A DNA stretch of 64,000 nucleotides from Promethearchaeota archaeon (GTDB lineage: Archaea; Asgardarchaeota; Lokiarchaeia; Sigyniarchaeales; SOKP01), in contig JBHLNF010000009.1 in NCBI GenBank assembly GCA_048937405.1, positions 96,001 through 160,000 on the forward strand, read 5' to 3'. The notes beneath the pieces were generated by a model. The model saw nothing but the letters and a program-made list of their open reading frames with translations. It was not told the origin of the DNA and searched no databases. Of the stretch, positions 29,392-35,328 are shown piece by piece. How positions within the stretch are numbered: position 1 is the first letter of the stretch; every line of letters begins with the position of its first letter. A program made the translations under genes and the position numbers.

Positions 29392-30567
29392 ATGCGAGTT
29401 TTGGATTTAGGTCAAGTAAATAAGCTAATTTTGAACAAACAACATTTAACTGAAAATGCAAAAATTGATGATATATTACAAATAACTGATGATTTATGTG
29501 GACTTCATTCCACGGAACTTACTACATCATATTTTTCTCTTTTTGCAAGAACAAAAAATTTTATTAAAAATGATTTGGAAAATGAACTTTACCTAAATAA
29601 AAATCTCGCAAGAATACGAGGAATGAGAAGAACTATCTTTATTGAAACCAAAAATTTTATTCCAATAGTATATGCAGCAACTTCTAATATAATTAGTAAA
29701 TCTTTCGAAAAATATATGGAATTTCATAAGATTACATTGAAAGAATATCAGGAAATATCGAAAAAAATATTGGAACTATTAATAGGAAAAGAATTGTCCG
29801 CATCAGAAATAAGAAAAGAAGTGAACTCCAAATCAAATATTCCAGCAATTATCCAATTTATGTGTAACTATGGTTTACTCATTAGAGGAAAACCAATCAA
29901 AAATTGGAAAGATCGAAGAAATAACTATGCAGTATTTAAAAACTATTTCCCTAACCTAAATTTAACAAAATTTAATGAAAATAAGGCGATTCAACTCCTT
30001 ATAGAAAAATATATTAAAGCATATGGACCAGTTTCAGAAAATGATATATCATGGTGGACAGGTTTAACCAAAACCAAAATAAGAAATGCTTTAAGTGCTA
30101 TAAATAGTAAATTAAGAGAAATCAAAATTACTAATATGAAACAACCATTTCTAATATGTGAAGAAGATATAGACCAGCTAAATAATTTACCTAATTCGCA
30201 AAAACAAACATTAAATATATTACCCAGACTCGATTCGTATCCAATGGGATATAAGGATCGTGAAAGGTATATAGATGCCAAAAATTATAATCTGATATTT
30301 GATCGTTCTGGAAATATAACATCAACTATTTTTTTAGATGGGATTGCAGTTGGTGTTTGGGATCTAGAAGATAAACCTGAACCGATGCTTAAAATATTTT
30401 TATTTGGTTCAATTAATGAAGAATATATCGATGAATTGTATTTAAAAGCTCAAAATGTAGGAGAATTCTTCTTTGATGAGATTGTAAAAATAAAAGAATG
30501 TGAAAAAATGATTCCACTAACAGAAAGAAATGCTGGGGGCTTTATGTCTCCACTTAAAAATTCTTGA
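29392..30567 (+). CDS. HTH_42 / AlkZ-like DNA glycosylase family protein
   Basis: CGLHSTE, MRRTIF, YIKAYGPVS..DISWWTG, LPRLDSYPMGYKDR, GVW. Confidence 0.85.
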   Translation: MRVLDLGQVNKLILNKQHLTENAKIDDILQITDDLCGLHSTELTTSYFSLFARTKNFIKNDLENELYLNKNLARIRGMRRTIFIETKNFIPIVYAATSNIISKSFEKYMEFHKITLKEYQEISKKILELLIGKELSASEIRKEVNSKSNIPAIIQFMCNYGLLIRGKPIKNWKDRRNNYAVFKNYFPNLNLTKFNENKAIQLLIEKYIKAYGPVSENDISWWTGLTKTKIRNALSAINSKLREIKITNMKQPFLICEEDIDQLNNLPNSQKQTLNILPRLDSYPMGYKDRERYIDAKNYNLIFDRSGNITSTIFLDGIAVGVWDLEDKPEPMLKIFLFGSINEEYIDELYLKAQNVGEFFFDEIVKIKECEKMIPLTERNAGGFMSPLKNS

Positions 30568-30733: not shown

Positions 30734-31315
30734 CTATTTTTTTTTCCAATAAGTAAAGTATACTATTATAAGTATAATCAACGCAGGAATTCCGAGTAAA
30801 ATTAATATCCACATTAAGGTTAAAAACCATGAATAAACCCAATATCCCCATGGCTTATTCCCAATTGGTGTATTATAATTTCCATCTGCAGCAATATAAA
30901 TACAATAAGCTATAAACATAAAGAAACCAAAACCACCACCCCCACCCCAATTTTGCTTTCTATGCTTTTCCTTTTTGTTTCTTGCTTTAAACCACTCTTG
31001 ATCTTCTGTGGGTAACTTACTCCACCATATGTATCCTCCTAAGCCAAAAAATAATGCTGCCGGAGCGCCCACAAATAGTAATTCCGCTAATATTAATTGT
31101 ATAAAGAATCCAACGATATAATTTAGTGTCCAATTTCCAATAAAGCCTGTTTGTGGGTCAACGAAAGGATTTACCTCTATTATCCAAAACAATGTCAAGA
31201 TAGCTCCTATAATTAAAAAAACAGCTGCTACAATCATCACTATAAAAGCATTAGTATGTTTCTTTATTGTTTCTTTCCAGAATTGTTCTTCACTTATATC
31301 ATTACTATTTTCCAT
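30734..31315 (-). CDS. Hypothetical membrane protein (4 TM)
   Basis: Four hydrophobic segments; GGGGG motif. Confidence 0.75.
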   Translation of the reverse strand: MENSNDISEEQFWKETIKKHTNAFIVMIVAAVFLIIGAILTLFWIIEVNPFVDPQTGFIGNWTLNYIVGFFIQLILAELLFVGAPAALFFGLGGYIWWSKLPTEDQEWFKARNKKEKHRKQNWGGGGGFGFFMFIAYCIYIAADGNYNTPIGNKPWGYWVYSWFLTLMWILILLGIPALIILIIVYFTYWKKK

Positions 31316-31501
31316 ATAAATTCCCCATTAATTTCATTAAAATTTTTATGTATTGACAGGAAAAATGAGTATTTAAACTTATCTACTCATAATCATTATA
31401 TCCCAAAAATTTTTATACTCTAAGGCTTATTTGGAACTATTATACGATTTGATAATTGAAAAATTAATAAAGACTGAGAACTATAAACATTATAAGGATA
31501 T

Positions 31502-31525
31502 AAATTATAATGATCCTAACAATTT
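31502..31525. promoter_or_regulatory. Degenerate copy of the putative MarR operator upstream of marR
   Basis: aaattataatGATCCTAACaattt carries the right half-site of the 32079 palindrome. Confidence 0.5.
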
Positions 31526-31534
31526 AGTGTAAAT

Positions 31535-31999
31535 ATGAATGAAGAAGAAACTTCTGGATTATGCGATAATTCATGTAAACCTGAATCTATTGTTGATGTG
31601 TTTTCTTTAATTAATACTTTAAGTAAGAAATATGAAAAATTAAAGCGAAATAATATTCAGGAATTAGAACTAACACCAGCACAGTATTTTATATTAAGTC
31701 AACTATGGGAATCAGATGGACAACAATTTAAAGAATTAGCAGAAAAATGTGGATGTTCAAGATCCACCATTACTGGGGTGGTAGATACAATGGAAAAAAA
31801 GATGATAGTTACTCGTGAATTACATCCTTCTGATAGGAGAAGCCTACTTGTCAAACTTACAAAAAAGGGTAAAAACTTAAAAAATGAAACACCACCTCTA
31901 GAATCGATCCTTGATGGATGCTGCCCAGAAATTAATGAAGAAGAGATGAAAAAGTTAGGGGAATTACTTCAGAAATTATTAAACTCACTAAAATATTAA
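31535..31999 (+). CDS. Cys-rich MarR-family regulator
   Basis: LTPAQY..L..LW, DRR...LTKKG; CDNSC, CGC and CC clusters. Confidence 0.92.
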   Translation: MNEEETSGLCDNSCKPESIVDVFSLINTLSKKYEKLKRNNIQELELTPAQYFILSQLWESDGQQFKELAEKCGCSRSTITGVVDTMEKKMIVTRELHPSDRRSLLVKLTKKGKNLKNETPPLESILDGCCPEINEEEMKKLGELLQKLLNSLKY

Positions 32000-32078
32000 C
32001 GCTTTAACTTGTCCTCCTCTTAAGTTTTACTTTTGATTATTTTGTTAGGTACTTAATTATACGAAACGAAACATTTAT

Positions 32079-32098
32079 ATAGTTAGGATCCCAACTAT
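32079..32098. promoter_or_regulatory. Palindromic operator overlapping the TATA box
   Basis: atagttaGGATCCcaactat (20 bp, one mismatched pair) abutting tttatata 32074-81; related sites near 32042 and 32120. Confidence 0.7.
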
Positions 32099-32140
32099 CA
32101 ATTATCTAACAATTAAATATTAATGAGGTCCTAATTACTT

Positions 32141-32224
32141 ATGGAAGATAAAGATAAAGAATGTTGTTCTGAAAAACCAAAAAATGATGAAGAGGAATCC
32201 CATTCAAAGGAAGGATGTTGTTAA
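32141..32224 (+). CDS. 27-aa acidic CC/CC micropeptide, putative metal-binding (not in the ORF track)
   Basis: MEDKDKECCSEKPKNDEEESHSKEGCC*; GAGGT RBS at 32125-29; TATA box upstream. Confidence 0.7.
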   Translation: MEDKDKECCSEKPKNDEEESHSKEGCC

Positions 32225-32383
32225 ATTAACAGAATTCAATCAAAAGTAATATTGAAAAAATATAATCTCAAGTTTTTTATTTTTTTTTTGATTTATTCGA
32301 TTGAAATTATAAATTTAGTATGACTGATTGTGAATAAAAATTAAAAAGTAATTATCCAAAATATCAAAATACGATAAATAGGT

Positions 32384-34072
32384 GTGAATAAAATAGCAGT
32401 AGTCTACATGCGTAAATTGGAATTAGAACCTGAGACTTATGAATCAAAATTCACTGAACTTGCAAAAGGTACGAATATCAAAGTTCAGAATTGGATATTA
32501 GAACGAATCAAAGCACCACAAATTATACTCGAAGTAGGGTGCGGTACAGGGACTCTTGCTAAAAAAATGGCCCTAAATGGAAATCAAGTCTTAGCAATTG
32601 ATAAAAACTTACAAATGATCGACACTGCTATGAAAAATTTTCCTTCTGAACCCAACACGAAACTTTTATACCAAATAGGATCTATCACTGATTTACCTGC
32701 TGAAGATAATTCTAAAGATTTGATTGTAAGTACTTTTATGCTTTCAGAACTTAGACCACTTGAACAACAAAATTTTCTGAGAAATGCTTGGAAGGTTTTA
32801 AAACCGAATGGTCGGATGATACTTGCTGCAGAATTTGTCCCTTCAGGGATTTGGAAAATTTTATTTAACATTAAACGTTGGAAATACAAAAAGAAATTAA
32901 GAAGACTCCGACTGCCGAGTACATTTGTAGTCAAATGGTTTTTCAATTATTTAGAGCCCATTGGTTTTAAATTAATGGCAGAAAAAAAATGGAATCATGG
33001 TTCTATTCGAGTTATTGAATTAAAGAAGATTCAGAATGATAATTTAAAAGAACCTGGTTATTATCGTCCTAAGCCTAAAAAGTTTAAAGGAATTCGGGCT
33101 CAAATGAATATTTATCGTTGTATTTTTACAGGACAGGTAGATCACATACCAATTGAGCCAGGGATTTACAAATCGGGGTCTCCTGATATGAATTCGCCTA
33201 TTCTTGTTACTGCTAATTACATTTATACATATATTAAATTAATGCGTGCTCTTAAAGGGATTGATGCTTGGGTATTATGTGTTGACTCAAATGGGATAAA
33301 TGTTTGGTGTGCAGCTCGAGGAAATAATTTTGGAAATAAGCAATTGATTGAAGTTGTAGAAGCAACTGACATCGCAGATGTCTCCAATAAGAAAACATTG
33401 ATTCTTCCTCAACTTTCCGCGGGAGGAGTTGCATCACCACTGATAAAAAGTGAAGCCCCAAATTTCAAATATAATATTCTATTTGGACCTGTATGGGCGA
33501 AAGACATCCCTAAATTTCTAAATGAACGCCCTACCCGAAAACCGGATAAGATGAAATTAGCTAAATTTACGGCTTCTCATCGTTTGCGTGCAGCCATTAC
33601 ACATACTACATTTTTATTACGGAAAATTTTCTTTTGGCCAAGTATTGTTCTAATATTAATTTTTCTTGGACTAAATATGGCAAGTATTATAGATGTGAAT
33701 AAACTATTGTTTATTGGTGAAATCTGGCTATGGGTTATTATAACAAATATATCCATTATGATTTTATTTCCTCTTACAAATTTTACACGAAAATTTATTA
33801 CTAAGGGTATTATTTATGGAGTTATTAACGTCTTTCTCTTAAGTTATATTTCTTGGCTTTTTCATACTTCACTACTTTTGATATTCTGGCAATCATTTTT
33901 TTATTTTTGGCTAGCATTTTTTTCTACTATGTCATATAGTGGGTATACTATGGCAACAAGTCCTCGAGAGATTCAAGATGAATATCCTACTTTCAGTAAA
34001 ATCAATATGATATTATTAATAATTGGCATTATTACTTTAGCTACAGGTTTCATCTTACCCTTGATATTTTAA
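32384..34072 (+). CDS. Class I SAM methyltransferase fused to an HgcA-like corrinoid-binding domain and ~5 TM helices
   Basis: LEVGCGTG, STFMLSEL; PIEPGIY, SPILVTANY, GINVWCAARG, LILPQLSAGGV, FGPVWA; hydrophobic C-terminus. Confidence 0.88.
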   Translation: MNKIAVVYMRKLELEPETYESKFTELAKGTNIKVQNWILERIKAPQIILEVGCGTGTLAKKMALNGNQVLAIDKNLQMIDTAMKNFPSEPNTKLLYQIGSITDLPAEDNSKDLIVSTFMLSELRPLEQQNFLRNAWKVLKPNGRMILAAEFVPSGIWKILFNIKRWKYKKKLRRLRLPSTFVVKWFFNYLEPIGFKLMAEKKWNHGSIRVIELKKIQNDNLKEPGYYRPKPKKFKGIRAQMNIYRCIFTGQVDHIPIEPGIYKSGSPDMNSPILVTANYIYTYIKLMRALKGIDAWVLCVDSNGINVWCAARGNNFGNKQLIEVVEATDIADVSNKKTLILPQLSAGGVASPLIKSEAPNFKYNILFGPVWAKDIPKFLNERPTRKPDKMKLAKFTASHRLRAAITHTTFLLRKIFFWPSIVLILIFLGLNMASIIDVNKLLFIGEIWLWVIITNISIMILFPLTNFTRKFITKGIIYGVINVFLLSYISWLFHTSLLLIFWQSFFYFWLAFFSTMSYSGYTMATSPREIQDEYPTFSKINMILLIIGIITLATGFILPLIF

Positions 34073-34160
34073 AACAAATTAAAATAAATACAATAAAAAA
34101 ATAATATTAATATGAGAAAAAAAGGTGGTTAAAATTACATTAAAATCAAAATCAGTTAAA

Positions 34161-34430
34161 ATGGCAATACTCATTCCAAAAATCTCAATTAATCCTGATT
34201 TATGTACGGGTTGTGGTATTTGTGGAGAAGTTTGTCCTTTTGGGATTCCAACTCCAGATGCAGAAGGGAAATATAGAATCAGTGAACCAGAACGTTGTAC
34301 GGAATGTTCTGCTTGTAAAAAAAATTGTCCTACAATGGCAATTCTCCTGCAAGAACAAAAAGGTTGTGGTTGTTTATGGAATGCACGTAGAGTTTCTAAA
34401 AATCCTCCAAATAACAGTTGTTGTGGATAA
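34161..34430 (+). CDS. HgcB-like 2x[4Fe-4S] ferredoxin with C-terminal Cys tail (upstream GTG at 34125 also possible)
   Basis: CTGCGICGEVCP, CTECSACKKNCP, GCGC, terminal SCCG. Confidence 0.85.
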   Translation: MAILIPKISINPDLCTGCGICGEVCPFGIPTPDAEGKYRISEPERCTECSACKKNCPTMAILLQEQKGCGCLWNARRVSKNPPNNSCCG

Positions 34431-34461
34431 GATCCACTTAAAATTCTTATTTTCTTACTAA

Positions 34462-35328
34462 TTAATATATAAATGTCTTCTTTTCCTTTTCTAGGAAGCT
34501 TTTCTTGATCAATAAATCCATTTCAGCATTTAACCAACAGAGTTCATCATAAGTACAGCTTGAATTAAACACTTCTCCTGCTTTTTGTTTTATATCTTCA
34601 ATAGAGGGCATATCAAGATTCATTTTCTGAATTTTTTCCGCTAACATCCAACATAAATCATTATAAGAGTATTTATCTAAGGAGAGAAAATAAGCTGCTT
34701 CTCTTATTTGCGTTTGTAGGTCAGGTTCTTCTGATGTTATCTCAATAAATTTTGGTTTAATTTTTCTATGTTCTTTAATTTGTTGTAACCAAGCTTCTAC
34801 ATCTGAAATTTCCTCAGTTTGAATTTGATCAGATGATTCTTCAAACTTAATGAATTTAACAGCACTATAGCTTTCATTTTCTCCTTTTTTTGCTTCCAAG
34901 ATTCTATGATTTTTGATCTGTTGGAACCATTGTACTATTCTCTCTTCTGAAATTCCTTCGAACGTAGCAGAATTCACACTCTCAAGTGGTGTCTCAAAAA
35001 CGAATTCAGGTCTCCGCTCTATTGTTTTGCCAGGAATATGTCCTTTTCTAAGATCATGTATCATCGCTAAAAAGGCACCATATTCTCTCTTTTGTTTCAT
35101 GATAAGTATTTTTGCAGATCCTCCTCTCTTTTTGTCAATATTCCTTGCAATCTCTGCAGTAATATCTTTTTTATTTTTTTTTACTTCTAATCCAACCCAA
35201 ATATAAATTGTATTTTTTTCCTCATCATCAACAAGATAAACATCATTTTCATTGAAAGGTAAACTGTCTATCTTTATCAATTCCCCATTATCGGCAATAC
35301 TGAATAGTTGCATTATTTTCACTCTCAA
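34462..35328 (-). CDS. One-domain gelsolin with C-terminal domain X (1DGelX-type)
   Basis: FNENDVYLVD...IYIWVG gelsolin core; duplicated YxxLCWxxAE domain. Confidence 0.85.
   Translation of the reverse strand: MRVKIMQLFSIADNGELIKIDSLPFNENDVYLVDDEEKNTIYIWVGLEVKKNKKDITAEIARNIDKKRGGSAKILIMKQKREYGAFLAMIHDLRKGHIPGKTIERRPEFVFETPLESVNSATFEGISEERIVQWFQQIKNHRILEAKKGENESYSAVKFIKFEESSDQIQTEEISDVEAWLQQIKEHRKIKPKFIEITSEEPDLQTQIREAAYFLSLDKYSYNDLCWMLAEKIQKMNLDMPSIEDIKQKAGEVFNSSCTYDELCWLNAEMDLLIKKSFLEKEKKTFIY

What the first reader, a model, noticed from the sequence alone, without database searches (positions are those of the whole stretch)
31502..34430. Self-contained, regulated HgcAB-like metal(loid) methylation module with its own SAM methyltransferase fused to the corrinoid protein
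Seen: four co-oriented genes, namely a Cys-rich MarR, a 27-aa CC/CC peptide, a methyltransferase-corrinoid-TM fusion and a 2x[4Fe-4S] ferredoxin ending GCGC...CC, with a palindromic operator at the promoter. Established: corrinoid domain plus TM anchor plus a ferredoxin with a Cys tail is the HgcA/HgcB architecture of mercury methylators; canonical HgcA has no methyltransferase domain; SAM can serve as HgcAB methyl donor. The N-terminal domain (VYMRKLE..PETY, STFMLSEL) recalls the corrinoid-associated methyltransferase CpaM, usually a separate gene (recognised from memory). Inference: one polypeptide channels methyl from SAM to cobalt to a thiol-bound substrate, inducibly. Cys pairs in the regulator, peptide and ferredoxin suggest a soft-metal sensing, delivery and methylation pathway whose substrate may not be Hg. 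Asgard hgcA-like genes have been reported, so the novelty is the fusion plus peptide plus regulator package.
Basis: partly seen in the sequence, partly recalled or inferred. Interest (0 to 1): 0.9.

Follow-up and report, generated by a model that had tools for sequence, protein, structure and literature searches.

The report
Arsenic-linked HgcAB-like methylation cassette in Asgard
An Asgard archaeon carries a regulated four-gene cassette whose enzyme fuses a SAM methyltransferase to a relative of the mercury-methylating protein HgcA, and in sister genomes the same enzyme sits inside arsenic-resistance operons, so it most likely works on arsenic, not mercury.

Summary
Four co-oriented genes are present: a MarR with three cysteine pairs, a 27-aa CC..CC peptide, a CpaM-like SAM methyltransferase fused to an HgcA-like corrinoid and 5-TM protein, and an HgcB-like ferredoxin. 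A conserved palindromic operator abuts the TATA box.

The fusion is not a canonical HgcA. Its cap helix reads NVWCAARG, it scores below the NCBIfam cut-offs, and it falls in a separate clade.

The fusion plus ferredoxin pair is widespread in Asgard archaea. New here: in 21 of 23 further loci of the same family (those without the MarR-peptide unit) the pair lies with ars-operon genes, typically ArsR<->ACR3-(ArsM)-fusion-ferredoxin-Trx-like CxC protein. Paralogues of this MarR sit next to bona fide ArsM genes. In the window's sub-lineage the pair lies behind a MarR-operator-peptide unit that also occurs without it.

Best reading (about 0.55): an arsenic-responsive module that passes methyl from SAM to cobalt to a thiol-bound metalloid. 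Arsenic methylation itself is inferred, not shown.

First readers of this scan noted the same module in other genomes. None of those notes had been checked.

Verdict: a new variant of a known kind, with fairly high interest.

The parts
31500..31526 (+). marR promoter region: TATA-like ATAAATTATA (31500-31509) followed by the operator right half-site GATCCTAAC (31512-31520)
   Evidence: Sequence. Imperfect palindrome I2. The block AAGGATATAAAT..CCTAAC is conserved upstream of MarR in L003-L006, L060 and L062.
31535..31999 (+). MarR-family regulator, 154 aa, with three conserved Cys pairs: an N-terminal CxxxC (CC in relatives), CGC just before the recognition helix, and GCC near the C-terminus
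   Evidence: Pfam MarR 61.2 bits. Cys pairs conserved in five orthologues. Paralogues lie next to ArsM in four genomes.
32044..32049 (+). Upstream operator half-site GTTAGG
   Evidence: The block TTTGTTAGG is conserved in L001, L003-L006 and L060.
32062..32081 (+). Archaeal BRE/TATA (CGAAACGAAAC.TTTATATA) of the peptide/enzyme transcription unit
   Evidence: Conserved block in the alignment of the MarR-peptide spacer. Promoter activity is inferred.
32080..32097 (.). 18-bp palindromic operator TAGTTAGGATCCCAACTA (one mismatch)
   Evidence: repeat I7. Perfect palindrome in L003 and L005. TAGTTAG-N4-CTAACTA is kept in L004 and L006. One-mismatch copies occur in L060, and a looser copy in L061. 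MarR binding is inferred.
32141..32224 (+). 27-aa acidic micropeptide with an ECC pair near the N-terminus and a GCC pair at the C-terminus. GAGGT SD at 32125-32129.
   Evidence: Conserved as a 25-32-aa ORF with SD, in-frame indels and invariant Cys pairs in six genomes, and in G008 and G132 without the enzyme downstream. No family match.
32273..32289 (+). Oligo-T tract between the peptide and the enzyme gene: a possible partial archaeal terminator
   Evidence: Conserved ATTTTTTTTT block. No structured RNA (z = +0.66) and no Rfam match. Function is inferred.
32384..34072 (+). Fusion protein (562 aa from GTG): CpaM-like SAM methyltransferase, HgcA-like corrinoid domain and 5-TM domain. Alternative starts are ATA 32393 and ATG 32408.
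   Evidence: AF2 model pLDDT 93.7, pTM 0.90. Best fold match is the HgcAB model 9a0b_A.
32399..33025 (+). Class I SAM methyltransferase domain (aa 6-214): LEVGCGTG motif, D73, D112, STFMLSEL
   Evidence: NF043040 CpaM 129.9 bits, profile positions 2-215 of 216. Invariant residues in A1. Folds like SAM methyltransferases.
33146..33553 (+). Corrinoid-binding domain (aa 255-390) with cap helix NVWCAARG at 33299-33322 (Cys309) and the PQLSAGG loop
   Evidence: N306, V307, W308 and C309 are invariant across 50 family members, canonical HgcA included.
33572..34066 (+). Five transmembrane helices (aa 397-561) with the conserved loop motif STMS.SGYTM.TSPREIQ.EYP
   Evidence: AF2 helices 397-432, 438-465, 471-494, 497-521 and 527-561. 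Motif conservation. The loop lies in the predicted ferredoxin interface.
34125..34430 (+). HgcB-like 2x[4Fe-4S] ferredoxin with GCGC (34362-34373) and a terminal CC (34419-34424). Alternative starts are ATT 34134 and ATG 34161.
   Evidence: NF040864 HgcB 54.9 bits is the best family. In A3 the eight cluster Cys, G80, C81 and C83 are invariant; G82, C99 and C100 are kept in at least 90% of rows. Directly downstream of the fusion in 27 of 27 loci. Complex prediction 0.75 against control 0.00.

Best explanation
What the cassette is:
- It encodes a non-canonical member of the HgcAB corrinoid methyltransferase superfamily that carries its own SAM-using domain.

Proposed mechanism (all steps inferred):
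- The CpaM-like Rossmann domain takes the methyl from SAM and puts it on Co(I) of the corrinoid, which is held under the cap helix (Cys309).
- The HgcB-like ferredoxin docks on the cap helix, the PQLSAGG loop and the conserved TM loop. It supplies low-potential electrons. With its GCGC motif and terminal CC it presents a thiol-bound soft metalloid, which receives the methyl.

Shown by comparative genomics:
- The home of this orthologue group is the ars operon: ArsR<->ACR3-(ArsM)-fusion-ferredoxin-Trx-like CxC protein-p122.

Inferred from that:
- The physiological substrate is most likely As(III) or methylarsenite bound to thiols.
- In the window's sub-lineage the enzyme pair has been moved behind a separate unit. 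That unit is a Cys-pair MarR repressor, an operator overlapping the end of the TATA box, and a CC..CC micropeptide.
- The MarR is read as a metalloid-sensing repressor, and the peptide as a small thiol chaperone or buffer.
For: Architecture and family:
- CpaM, HgcAB_like, HgcA and HgcB are the top NCBIfam hits.
- SAM motifs and cap-helix residues G304, N306, V307, W308, C309, A310, A311, R312 and G313 are invariant in 20 fusions.
- The AF2 model is confident (pLDDT 93.7, pTM 0.90) with five TM helices. Its best fold match is the HgcAB model 9a0b_A (E 1.9e-12).
- All three architectures occur in Asgard genomes: split CpaM plus HgcAB-like, CpaM::HgcA plus HgcB, and the triple fusion. This is a Rosetta-stone link between the three parts.
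- A ferredoxin lies directly downstream in 27 of 27 orthologous loci, and is downstream or fused in 20 of 20 distant loci.

Complex prediction for fusion plus ferredoxin:
- Score 0.75, best of 3 controls 0.00.
- That mark was reached by 58 of 80 solved complexes and 2 of 110 mismatched pairs.
- The runs agree in at least 94% of contacts, and the partner's pLDDT is at least 76.
- The interface includes the cap helix and the GCGC motif.

Arsenic link:
- ACR3 (TIGR00832, 283.4 bits, cut-off 282.8) lies 28-56 nt upstream in 14 loci.
- A CVCE-motif ArsR is adjacent in 10 loci. ArsC and ArsM lie nearby.
- In G209 the operon reads ArsR<->ACR3-ArsM-fusion-ferredoxin-p90-p122.
- In G129 the order is MarR-ArsM-DUF166-like gene-fusion-ferredoxin.
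- p90 is fused to ArsM in G138.
- MarR paralogues (47-55% identity) sit next to bona fide ArsM in G171, G129, G180 and G065.

Cassette history:
- The site is empty in G192 and G132.
- G000's own ars locus lacks the pair.

Literature:
- SAM is the methyl donor for HgcAB (PMC11588087).
- hgcAB is controlled by an As-responsive ArsR (10.1101/2022.10.17.512643).
Against: - No biochemical or expression data exist for any member.
- In the window itself no ars gene is adjacent, and the regulator is a MarR, not an ArsR.
- More divergent members of the NVWCAARG clade (P0142, P0144) and most paralogues in other Asgard families have no ars genes nearby.
- ArsM and the fusion occur in one operon in G209 and G129, so the two are not simply redundant.
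- P. mercurii ND132, which has canonical HgcAB, made no methylarsenicals (10.1101/2022.10.17.512643, section 20).
- All family scores are below the curated cut-offs.
- Cobalamin could not be placed in the model.
Confidence: 0.55

Rival explanations
1. It is a genuine mercury methylase. Like canonical HgcAB, it transfers methyl from SAM through cobalt to Hg(II), and the fused domain only makes SAM use more efficient.
For: It shares the HgcA-type corrinoid domain, the cap-helix Cys and Trp, five TM helices and an HgcB-like partner with GCGC and CC. SAM is the HgcAB methyl donor (PMC11588087).
Against: - The cap helix NVWCAARG is not among the six motifs of verified methylators (PMC10087281).
- HgcA scores 172.6 bits against a cut-off of 275.
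- The protein lies outside the canonical clade, which is separated with 100% support.
- Tested organisms with the neighbouring fused-HgcAB type do not make methylmercury (PMC10087281, PMC10083202).
- The gene context is arsenic resistance, and no mer genes were seen among the flanking genes examined.
Confidence: 0.1
2. It acts on arsenic or another metalloid, but not as a primary arsenite methylase. It might add later methyl groups to ArsM products, or methylate Sb, Se or Te species that travel with arsenic.
For: ArsM and the fusion are co-oriented in one operon in G209 and G129, which suggests complementary rather than identical roles. A thioredoxin-fold CxC protein (p90) accompanies both.
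Against: G000 and at least 12 other genomes with the fusion have no ArsM above the cut-off, so the enzyme must be able to work without ArsM.
Confidence: 0.2
3. The corrinoid system has a non-metal substrate, for example reductive dehalogenation of halomethanes or methylation of a membrane thiol or lipid. On this view its ars-operon position reflects co-regulation only.
For: A 2026 preprint reports CCl4 dechlorination by heterologously expressed HgcAB (10.64898/2026.04.26.720869). The TM domain is highly conserved. Divergent family members are not ars-linked.
Against: A dehalogenase needs no SAM methyltransferase domain, yet the SAM motifs are invariant. The pair is tightly embedded in the operon between ACR3/ArsM and p90 in many genomes. 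Cys pairs occur on the ferredoxin tails, the peptide and the regulator.
Confidence: 0.1
4. The CC..CC peptide is itself the substrate (S-methylation of its cysteines), or it is merely a Cys-rich leader peptide for attenuation at the T-tract, and not a metalloid chaperone.
For: The peptide is the first ORF behind the operator. It is followed by a conserved oligo-T tract.
Against: The MarR-peptide unit exists without the enzyme downstream in G008 and G132. Most orthologous enzyme loci have no such peptide. The spacer shows no structured attenuator.
Confidence: 0.05

Closest known systems
HgcA/HgcB mercury methylation pair (NCBIfam NF040863 / NF040864)
   Same: A CFeSP-type corrinoid domain with a cap-helix Cys. 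A C-terminal five-helix membrane domain. A separate 2x[4Fe-4S] ferredoxin with an extra Cys after the second cluster and a terminal CC. SAM as the likely methyl source.
   Different: An N-terminal Rossmann SAM methyltransferase is fused on. The cap helix ends RG instead of GK. Scores are below the cut-offs (172.6 of 275; 54.9 of 99). The protein belongs to a separate clade. The ars-operon context is far tighter than the ArsR link reported for hgcAB.
HgcAB-like fusion protein with its adjacent CpaM methyltransferase (NCBIfam NF043039 / NF043040), for example in Pyrococcus furiosus
   Same: The same three modules are always found together: a CpaM-type methyltransferase, an HgcA-like corrinoid/TM protein and an HgcB-like ferredoxin. 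None has a known function. Tested hosts of this type do not methylate Hg.
   Different: The fusion point differs. Here CpaM is fused to the HgcA part and the ferredoxin is free. There the HgcA and HgcB parts are fused and CpaM is free. Triple fusions also exist (P0256, L040, L043). The window's protein is in a sister clade (97-99% support) and below both cut-offs.
ArsM, the As(III) S-adenosylmethionine methyltransferase
   Same: A SAM-dependent class I fold. It resides in ars operons and is found next to the same p90 and p122 genes and the same MarR subfamily in this archaeal family.
   Different: There is no ArsM membership (41.5 bits against 263), and no conserved ArsM-type Cys set was seen in the methyltransferase domain. 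Methyl transfer would go through a corrinoid and needs a ferredoxin.
Corrinoid iron-sulfur protein large subunit (AcsC/CdhE) of the Wood-Ljungdahl pathway
   Same: A homologous corrinoid-binding domain (PF03599; PDB 2h9a, 4c1n, 9fzy).
   Different: Only 70 bits to the CdhE model. There is no N-terminal [4Fe-4S] domain. It is membrane-anchored. A cap-helix Cys is present. The methyl donor is SAM, not methyl-tetrahydrofolate or methyl-tetrahydropterin.

Membership tests
HgcA (NF040863, mercury methylation corrinoid protein) | HMM score at or above the curated cut-off of 275 bits | tested here: not met
   172.6 bits. Canonical representatives score 355-394 bits.
HgcA (NF040863, mercury methylation corrinoid protein) | Cap-helix motif of verified methylators (NVWCAAGK, NVWCASGK, NVWCAGGK, NIWCAAGK, NIWCAGGK, NVWCSAGK; PMC10087281) | tested here: not met
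   The motif is NVWCAARG. Cys309 and Trp308 are kept, and GK is replaced by RG.
HgcA (NF040863, mercury methylation corrinoid protein) | Corrinoid-binding domain followed by a five-helix transmembrane domain | tested here: met
   PF03599 matches aa 240-346. The AF2 model has five helices at 397-561. It matches the HgcA model 9a0b_A.
HgcA (NF040863, mercury methylation corrinoid protein) | Placement inside the canonical HgcA clade | tested here: not met
   The canonical clade is separated with 100% support in both FastTree and IQ-TREE. The window's protein falls in a distinct NVWCAARG clade.
HgcA (NF040863, mercury methylation corrinoid protein) | Methylates Hg(II) | not testable with these tools
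   This needs an enzyme or culture assay.
HgcAB-like fusion protein (NF043039) | Score at or above 285 bits and a C-terminally fused dicluster ferredoxin | tested here: not met
   181.4 bits, covering profile positions 14-269 of 350 only. The ferredoxin is a separate gene.
CpaM corrinoid protein-associated methyltransferase (NF043040) | Score at or above 180 bits | tested here: not met
   129.9 bits. It is still the best family for aa 6-214 and aligns over profile positions 2-215 of 216. Related fusions score 211-266 bits.
CpaM corrinoid protein-associated methyltransferase (NF043040) | Class I SAM-binding motifs and association with an HgcA-like corrinoid protein | tested here: met
   GCGTG, D73 and D112 are invariant. 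The domain is fused in frame to the corrinoid protein.
HgcB (NF040864) | Score at or above 99 bits | tested here: not met
   54.9 bits, the best-scoring family.
HgcB (NF040864) | Two CX2CX2CX3C motifs, a further Cys after the second cluster and a C-terminal Cys pair, encoded next to the hgcA-type gene | tested here: met
   The eight cluster Cys, C81 and C83 are invariant; C99 and C100 are kept in at least 90% of 25 homologues. The gene is adjacent in 27 of 27 loci.
MarR family (PF01047) | Winged-helix MarR domain above the gathering score | tested here: met
   61.2 bits against 24.6.
ars (arsenic resistance) operon | Co-transcribed or adjacent ArsR, ACR3/ArsB, ArsC or ArsM | tested here: inconclusive
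   Not met in the window: no ars gene lies within 31316-34461, and G000's ars locus is on contig C7. Met for orthologues: 21 of 23 loci hold at least one ars-locus gene within 1.5 kb.
ArsM (NF008823) | Score at or above 263 bits | tested here: not met
   41.5 bits over the SAM-binding core only.

The most novel reading that the evidence does not exclude
The NVWCAARG fusion and its ferredoxin are a cobalamin-dependent, SAM-fed arsenite (metalloid) methyltransferase. That would be an ArsM-independent route to methylarsenicals in anoxic sediments, carried by most Lokiarchaeia-type Asgard archaea. It would also imply that the HgcAB superfamily arose as a metalloid-detoxification system, with mercury methylation as a side branch.
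Probability: 0.35. Interest if true: 0.85.

Novelty: new variant of a known kind. Interest (0 to 1): 0.72.

Why it matters
Why microbes keep hgcAB-type genes is an open question. Published hints so far are an arsenic-responsive ArsR upstream of hgcAB and, more recently, SAM as the methyl donor.

This Asgard branch adds two things that make the question testable. First, a dedicated SAM-binding domain is fused to the corrinoid protein, which points to how SAM could reach the cobalt in this branch of the family. Second, the enzyme is repeatedly embedded in the operon between ACR3/ArsM and thiol proteins, which names arsenic as the substrate to test.

If confirmed, sediment arsenic methylation budgets and hgcA-based surveys would need revising. 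Such surveys discard or mislabel these genes, which are annotated only as 'methyltransferase domain-containing protein'. A new thiol-based MarR-type metalloid sensor and a four-cysteine micropeptide would also be defined.

Tried and rejected
- Expression: no RNA holder was listed for the stretch. Only DNA runs from sediment, mangrove and other metagenomes hold it, so expression could not be examined and read laying was not used.
- RNA elements: Rfam gave no hit over 31000-34800 at E up to 0.1. The peptide-enzyme spacer folds no better than shuffles (z = +0.66). A riboswitch or structured attenuator was therefore dropped.
- Literature: no paper in the library holds both 'CpaM' and 'corrinoid'. 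The J Bacteriol 2023 paper PMC9879109, cited in PMC11588087 for possible selenoprotein homologues of hgcA/hgcB, is not held. Searches for HgcA-like, hgcAB-like or fused hgcAB found no description of an N-terminal methyltransferase fusion or of an Asgard ars-operon context.
- Second word-index protein search: it returned only close orthologues and gave no names for distant relatives.
- p90, p122, p76 and the peptide: no Pfam or NCBIfam family. The p90 model matches thioredoxins and glutaredoxins only weakly (best E 5.9e-3).
- Strict ArsM/fusion displacement was considered and rejected. G209 and G129 carry both in one cluster. The presence table (fusion only 13, both 5, ArsM only 4, neither 3) is only descriptive.
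Cobalamin is not an available ligand.
- The apparently truncated second HgcA-like ORF in G000 is cut by the contig end and is not a pseudogene.


Full report
**1. What is in the window**

Between a divergently oriented membrane-protein gene (30734-31315, minus strand) and a gelsolin-like gene (34462-35328, minus strand) lie four plus-strand ORFs.

- MarR, 31535-31999. It matches Pfam MarR at 61.2 bits against a cut-off of 24.6.
- A 27-aa ORF, 32141-32224. It has no family match.
- A 562-aa protein, 32384-34072. Residues 6-214 match the NCBIfam model for the corrinoid protein-associated methyltransferase CpaM (129.9 bits, profile positions 2-215 of 216). Residues 255-553 match HgcAB_like (181.4 bits) and HgcA (172.6 bits). 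The acetyl-CoA decarbonylase gamma subunit model reaches only 70 bits.
- A 101-aa ferredoxin, 34125-34430. It has two CX2CX2CX3C motifs, and HgcB is its best family (54.9 bits).

All four enzyme-family scores are below the curated cut-offs. These proteins are therefore relatives, not members, of the named equivalogs. The best matches to the fusion are annotated as Lokiarchaeota, Promethearchaeota, Thor-, Hod-, Hermod- and Heimdallarchaeota. The organism is thus an Asgard archaeon. GC content is about 28%.

**2. Regulation**

The spacer between MarR and the peptide holds a conserved purine-rich BRE followed by TTTATATA (32062-32081). Overlapping the last two bases of the TATA box is the 18-bp palindrome TAGTTAGGATCCCAACTA (32080-32097).

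In five related genomes the block is conserved. The palindrome is perfect in two of them, and TAGTTAG-N4-CTAACTA is kept in two more. A half-site GTTAGG lies about 35 nt upstream. The right half-site GATCCTAAC recurs between a TATA-like box and the marR start codon. An operator overlapping the transcription start region fits repression by the adjacent MarR, but binding is inferred.

The MarR carries three Cys pairs that are conserved in its orthologues and largely absent from its paralogues in the same genome:
- N-terminal CC (CxxxC in the window);
- CGC or CNC just before the recognition helix;
- GCC near the C-terminus.

A conserved oligo-T tract (32273-32289) separates the peptide from the enzyme gene. 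No RNA structure or Rfam family is present there.

**3. The peptide is a real gene**

Six genomes keep an ORF of 25-32 codons with the following features:
- an SD-like sequence 6-10 nt upstream of the ATG;
- indels that stay in frame;
- many replacements in the acidic, lysine-rich linker;
- invariant Cys pairs near both ends.

**4. Family placement of the enzyme**

A search of 1.8 billion cluster representatives with the C-terminal 333 residues found 980 relatives at E up to 0.001. The cap-helix motif sorts them.

- NVWCAAGK proteins of about 330-390 aa. Three sampled ones score 355-394 bits on the HgcA model.
- NVWCAA[C/T/S/G]G proteins with a fused C-terminal ferredoxin. Two sampled ones score 378-448 bits on HgcAB_like.
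- NVWCAARG proteins with an N-terminal methyltransferase, which is the window's type.
- A few other methyltransferase fusions, including the triple fusion CpaM-HgcA-HgcB (P0256).

Two trees were built, both rooted on the genome's own CdhE: FastTree with 126 rows and IQ-TREE under LG+C20 with 57 rows. Both separate the canonical clade with 100% support. Both place the window's protein in an NVWCAARG clade (13 rows at 99%, 14 rows at 97%) that is distinct from the ferredoxin-fused clade (99%).

NVWCAARG is not among the six motifs used to define verified methylators (PMC10087281). Lin et al. (PMC10083202) placed some Thor- and Lokiarchaeota sequences in their fused-HgcAB subtree after trimming the first 327 alignment columns. 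Such trimming could hide this N-terminal domain; that is my inference.

**5. Structure**

With a 50-row alignment, AlphaFold2 gives mean pLDDT 93.7 and pTM 0.90. The model has three parts:
- a Rossmann methyltransferase, about residues 1-215;
- a corrinoid domain, about residues 255-390;
- five long helices, residues 397-561.

The best Foldseek match is the deposited HgcAB model 9a0b_A (E 1.9e-12, TM-score by target 0.59). The remaining matches are SAM methyltransferases.

Across 20 fusions the following are invariant or nearly so:
- the SAM motif (G52, C53, G54, G56), D73 and D112;
- the cap helix G304, N306-G313;
- PQLSAGG;
- the membrane-loop motif STMS.SGYTM.TSPREIQ.EYP.

**6. The partner ferredoxin**

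A ferredoxin follows the fusion in 27 of 27 orthologous loci that retain downstream DNA. In 20 distant Asgard loci it is either downstream or fused to the enzyme. In 25 homologues the eight cluster Cys, G80, C81 and C83 are invariant, and G82, C99 and C100 are kept in at least 90% of rows.

A complex prediction gave a score of 0.75, with the best of 3 controls at 0.00.
- That mark was reached by 58 of 80 solved complexes and 2 of 110 mismatched pairs.
- The runs agree in at least 94% of contacts, and the partner's pLDDT is at least 76.
- My own alignments were used, so these calibration counts hold only roughly.
- The interface joins the cap helix (308-314), the PQLSAGG loop, residues 367-393 and the conserved membrane loop (516-538) to both cluster regions and the GCGC segment of the ferredoxin.

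This supports binding but does not show it. The pass may partly reflect likeness to the published HgcAB model.

**7. The arsenic context (the main new result)**

Orthologues at 53-68% identity in the same archaeal family are not next to a MarR. In 14 loci they lie 28-56 nt downstream of an ACR3 arsenite efflux gene (TIGR00832, 283.4 bits against a cut-off of 282.8). In 10 loci they lie beside an ArsR that carries the As(III)-type CVCE motif. They are followed by a 90-aa CxC protein (p90) and a 122-aa protein (p122). ArsC or ArsM is sometimes nearby. In all, 21 of 23 such loci hold at least one ars-locus gene within 1.5 kb.

Operon variants found:

| Genome | Gene order |
|---|---|
| G209 | ArsR<->ACR3-ArsM-fusion-ferredoxin-p90-p122 |
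| G144, G212, G216 | ACR3-ArsM-p122, without the fusion |
| G138 | ArsM fused to p90 in one 370-aa ORF (G205 has ArsM directly followed by p90) |
| G129 | MarR-ArsM-DUF166-like gene-fusion-ferredoxin |

The p90 model has a thioredoxin/glutaredoxin-like fold, with the CxC at the start of helix 1. The fold matches are weak.

Distant paralogues in other Asgard families, and the more divergent clade members, mostly lack ars neighbours. ArsR-type regulators do precede some of them. The arsenic link therefore holds for this orthologue group and not for the whole superfamily.

**8. History of the cassette**

- The window's genome has an ars locus on contig C7 (ArsR<->ACR3-p90-p122) with no fusion or ferredoxin. 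It has no ArsM above the cut-off.
- In same-genus genomes G192 and G132 the membrane-protein and gelsolin genes are only 140-186 nt apart, which is an empty site.
- G008 has, next to that same membrane-protein gene, MarR (75% identity), the operator, a CC..CC peptide and an FMN-reductase-type flavoprotein, but no enzyme within the stretch read.
- G132 has MarR and the peptide elsewhere.
- G195 has MarR-peptide-flavoprotein-fusion-ferredoxin.

MarR-operator-peptide is therefore a unit of its own. In one sub-lineage (six genomes) the enzyme pair lies behind it instead of in the ars operon, which I read as a relocation.

MarR paralogues of 47-55% identity stand directly beside bona fide ArsM genes in G171 (337.8 bits), G129, G180 and G065. 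This supports reading the MarR subfamily as arsenic-responsive.

**9. Mechanism, and what is shown versus inferred**

Shown:
- the domain architecture;
- conservation of the catalytic-type residues;
- obligate pairing with the ferredoxin;
- the conserved operator and peptide;
- the ars-operon residence of the orthologues.

Inferred:
- SAM methylates Co(I) through the fused domain. For canonical HgcAB, SAM-dependent formation of methylcob(III)alamin with Cys ligation was shown experimentally (PMC11588087).
- The ferredoxin supplies electrons and presents the substrate on its Cys tails.
- The acceptor is thiol-bound As(III) or a methylarsenical.
- MarR senses the metalloid through its Cys pairs.
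- The peptide buffers or hands over the metalloid.

Caveats:
- ND132, which has canonical HgcAB, produced no methylarsenicals (10.1101/2022.10.17.512643).
- ArsM and the fusion coexist in some operons.

For these reasons I keep the specific claim 'arsenite methyltransferase' at about one third. The broader claim 'arsenic-linked corrinoid methyl-transfer module' I put a little above one half.

**10. Novelty**

NCBIfam already recognises that a CpaM methyltransferase accompanies HgcAB-like proteins. The arsenic-responsive regulation of hgcAB is published.

I found no description in the searchable literature of the following:
- the CpaM::HgcA fusion clade with its free ferredoxin;
- its embedding in Asgard ars operons next to ACR3 and ArsM;
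- the MarR-operator-micropeptide unit.

Public records name these proteins only 'methyltransferase domain-containing protein'. First readers of this scan noted the same module in other genomes. None of those notes had been checked.

Noticed in passing
window 32384-32410 and 34124-34163: For both the fusion and the ferredoxin, the listed GTG start lies inside the GGTG Shine-Dalgarno-like sequence. An in-frame ATA (32393) or ATT (34134) follows 5-8 nt later. At the fusion's position other genera have ATG (protein begins MAVVYMRKLE), while sister genomes have ATC or CTG. Near-cognate start codons may therefore be in use.
   Followed up: partly
window 34462-35328 (-): A gelsolin-repeat protein (PF00626, 24.8 bits), an Asgard eukaryotic-signature-type gene, flanks the cassette. 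It is conserved at this site in relatives.
   Followed up: no
window 30734-31315 (-): A 193-aa membrane protein with a GGGGGFGFF stretch and no family (only a weak DUF4064 hit) is the conserved divergent neighbour of the MarR unit. This holds even in G008, where the enzyme is not found behind that unit.
   Followed up: partly
window 29392-30567 (+): AlkZ-like DNA glycosylase (PF06224, 139 bits) upstream of the locus.
   Followed up: no
G000 contig C27:222142-223093 (L056), outside the window: The same genome has a second system of the classical split type: a free 220-aa CpaM followed by an HgcA(B)-like gene with cap helix NVWCGACG. The second gene is cut by the contig end.
   Followed up: partly
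L070:2747-3856 (G138) and L074 (G205): In G138 ArsM is fused to the 90-aa CxC thioredoxin-fold protein (p90) that follows the fusion-ferredoxin pair in other ars operons. This is a Rosetta-stone link between p90 and arsenic methylation. G205 shows ArsM directly followed by p90.
   Followed up: partly
L023:757-1122 and L055 downstream of p90: p122 (also seen as p76) is a conserved last gene of these Asgard ars operons. It has no Pfam or NCBIfam family.
   Followed up: no
P0256; L040:4692-6452; L043:4605-6518: Triple fusions CpaM-HgcA-like-HgcB-like (587-638 aa) exist, some of them in Asgard genomes. P0256 scores 381 bits on HgcAB_like and 266 bits on CpaM.
   Followed up: partly
L054:8331-8897 (G195) and L060:559-1125 (G008): An FMN_red (PF03358) flavoprotein with a CxxCxxC motif follows the CC..CC peptide in two genomes. 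The window lacks it, and instead has a spacer about 57 nt longer before the fusion gene.
   Followed up: partly
L055:663-1379 (G000 C7): A 239-aa class I methyltransferase lies next to, and co-oriented with, the ArsR of the genome's own ars locus. No Pfam family beyond generic methyltransferase domains matched it.
   Followed up: no
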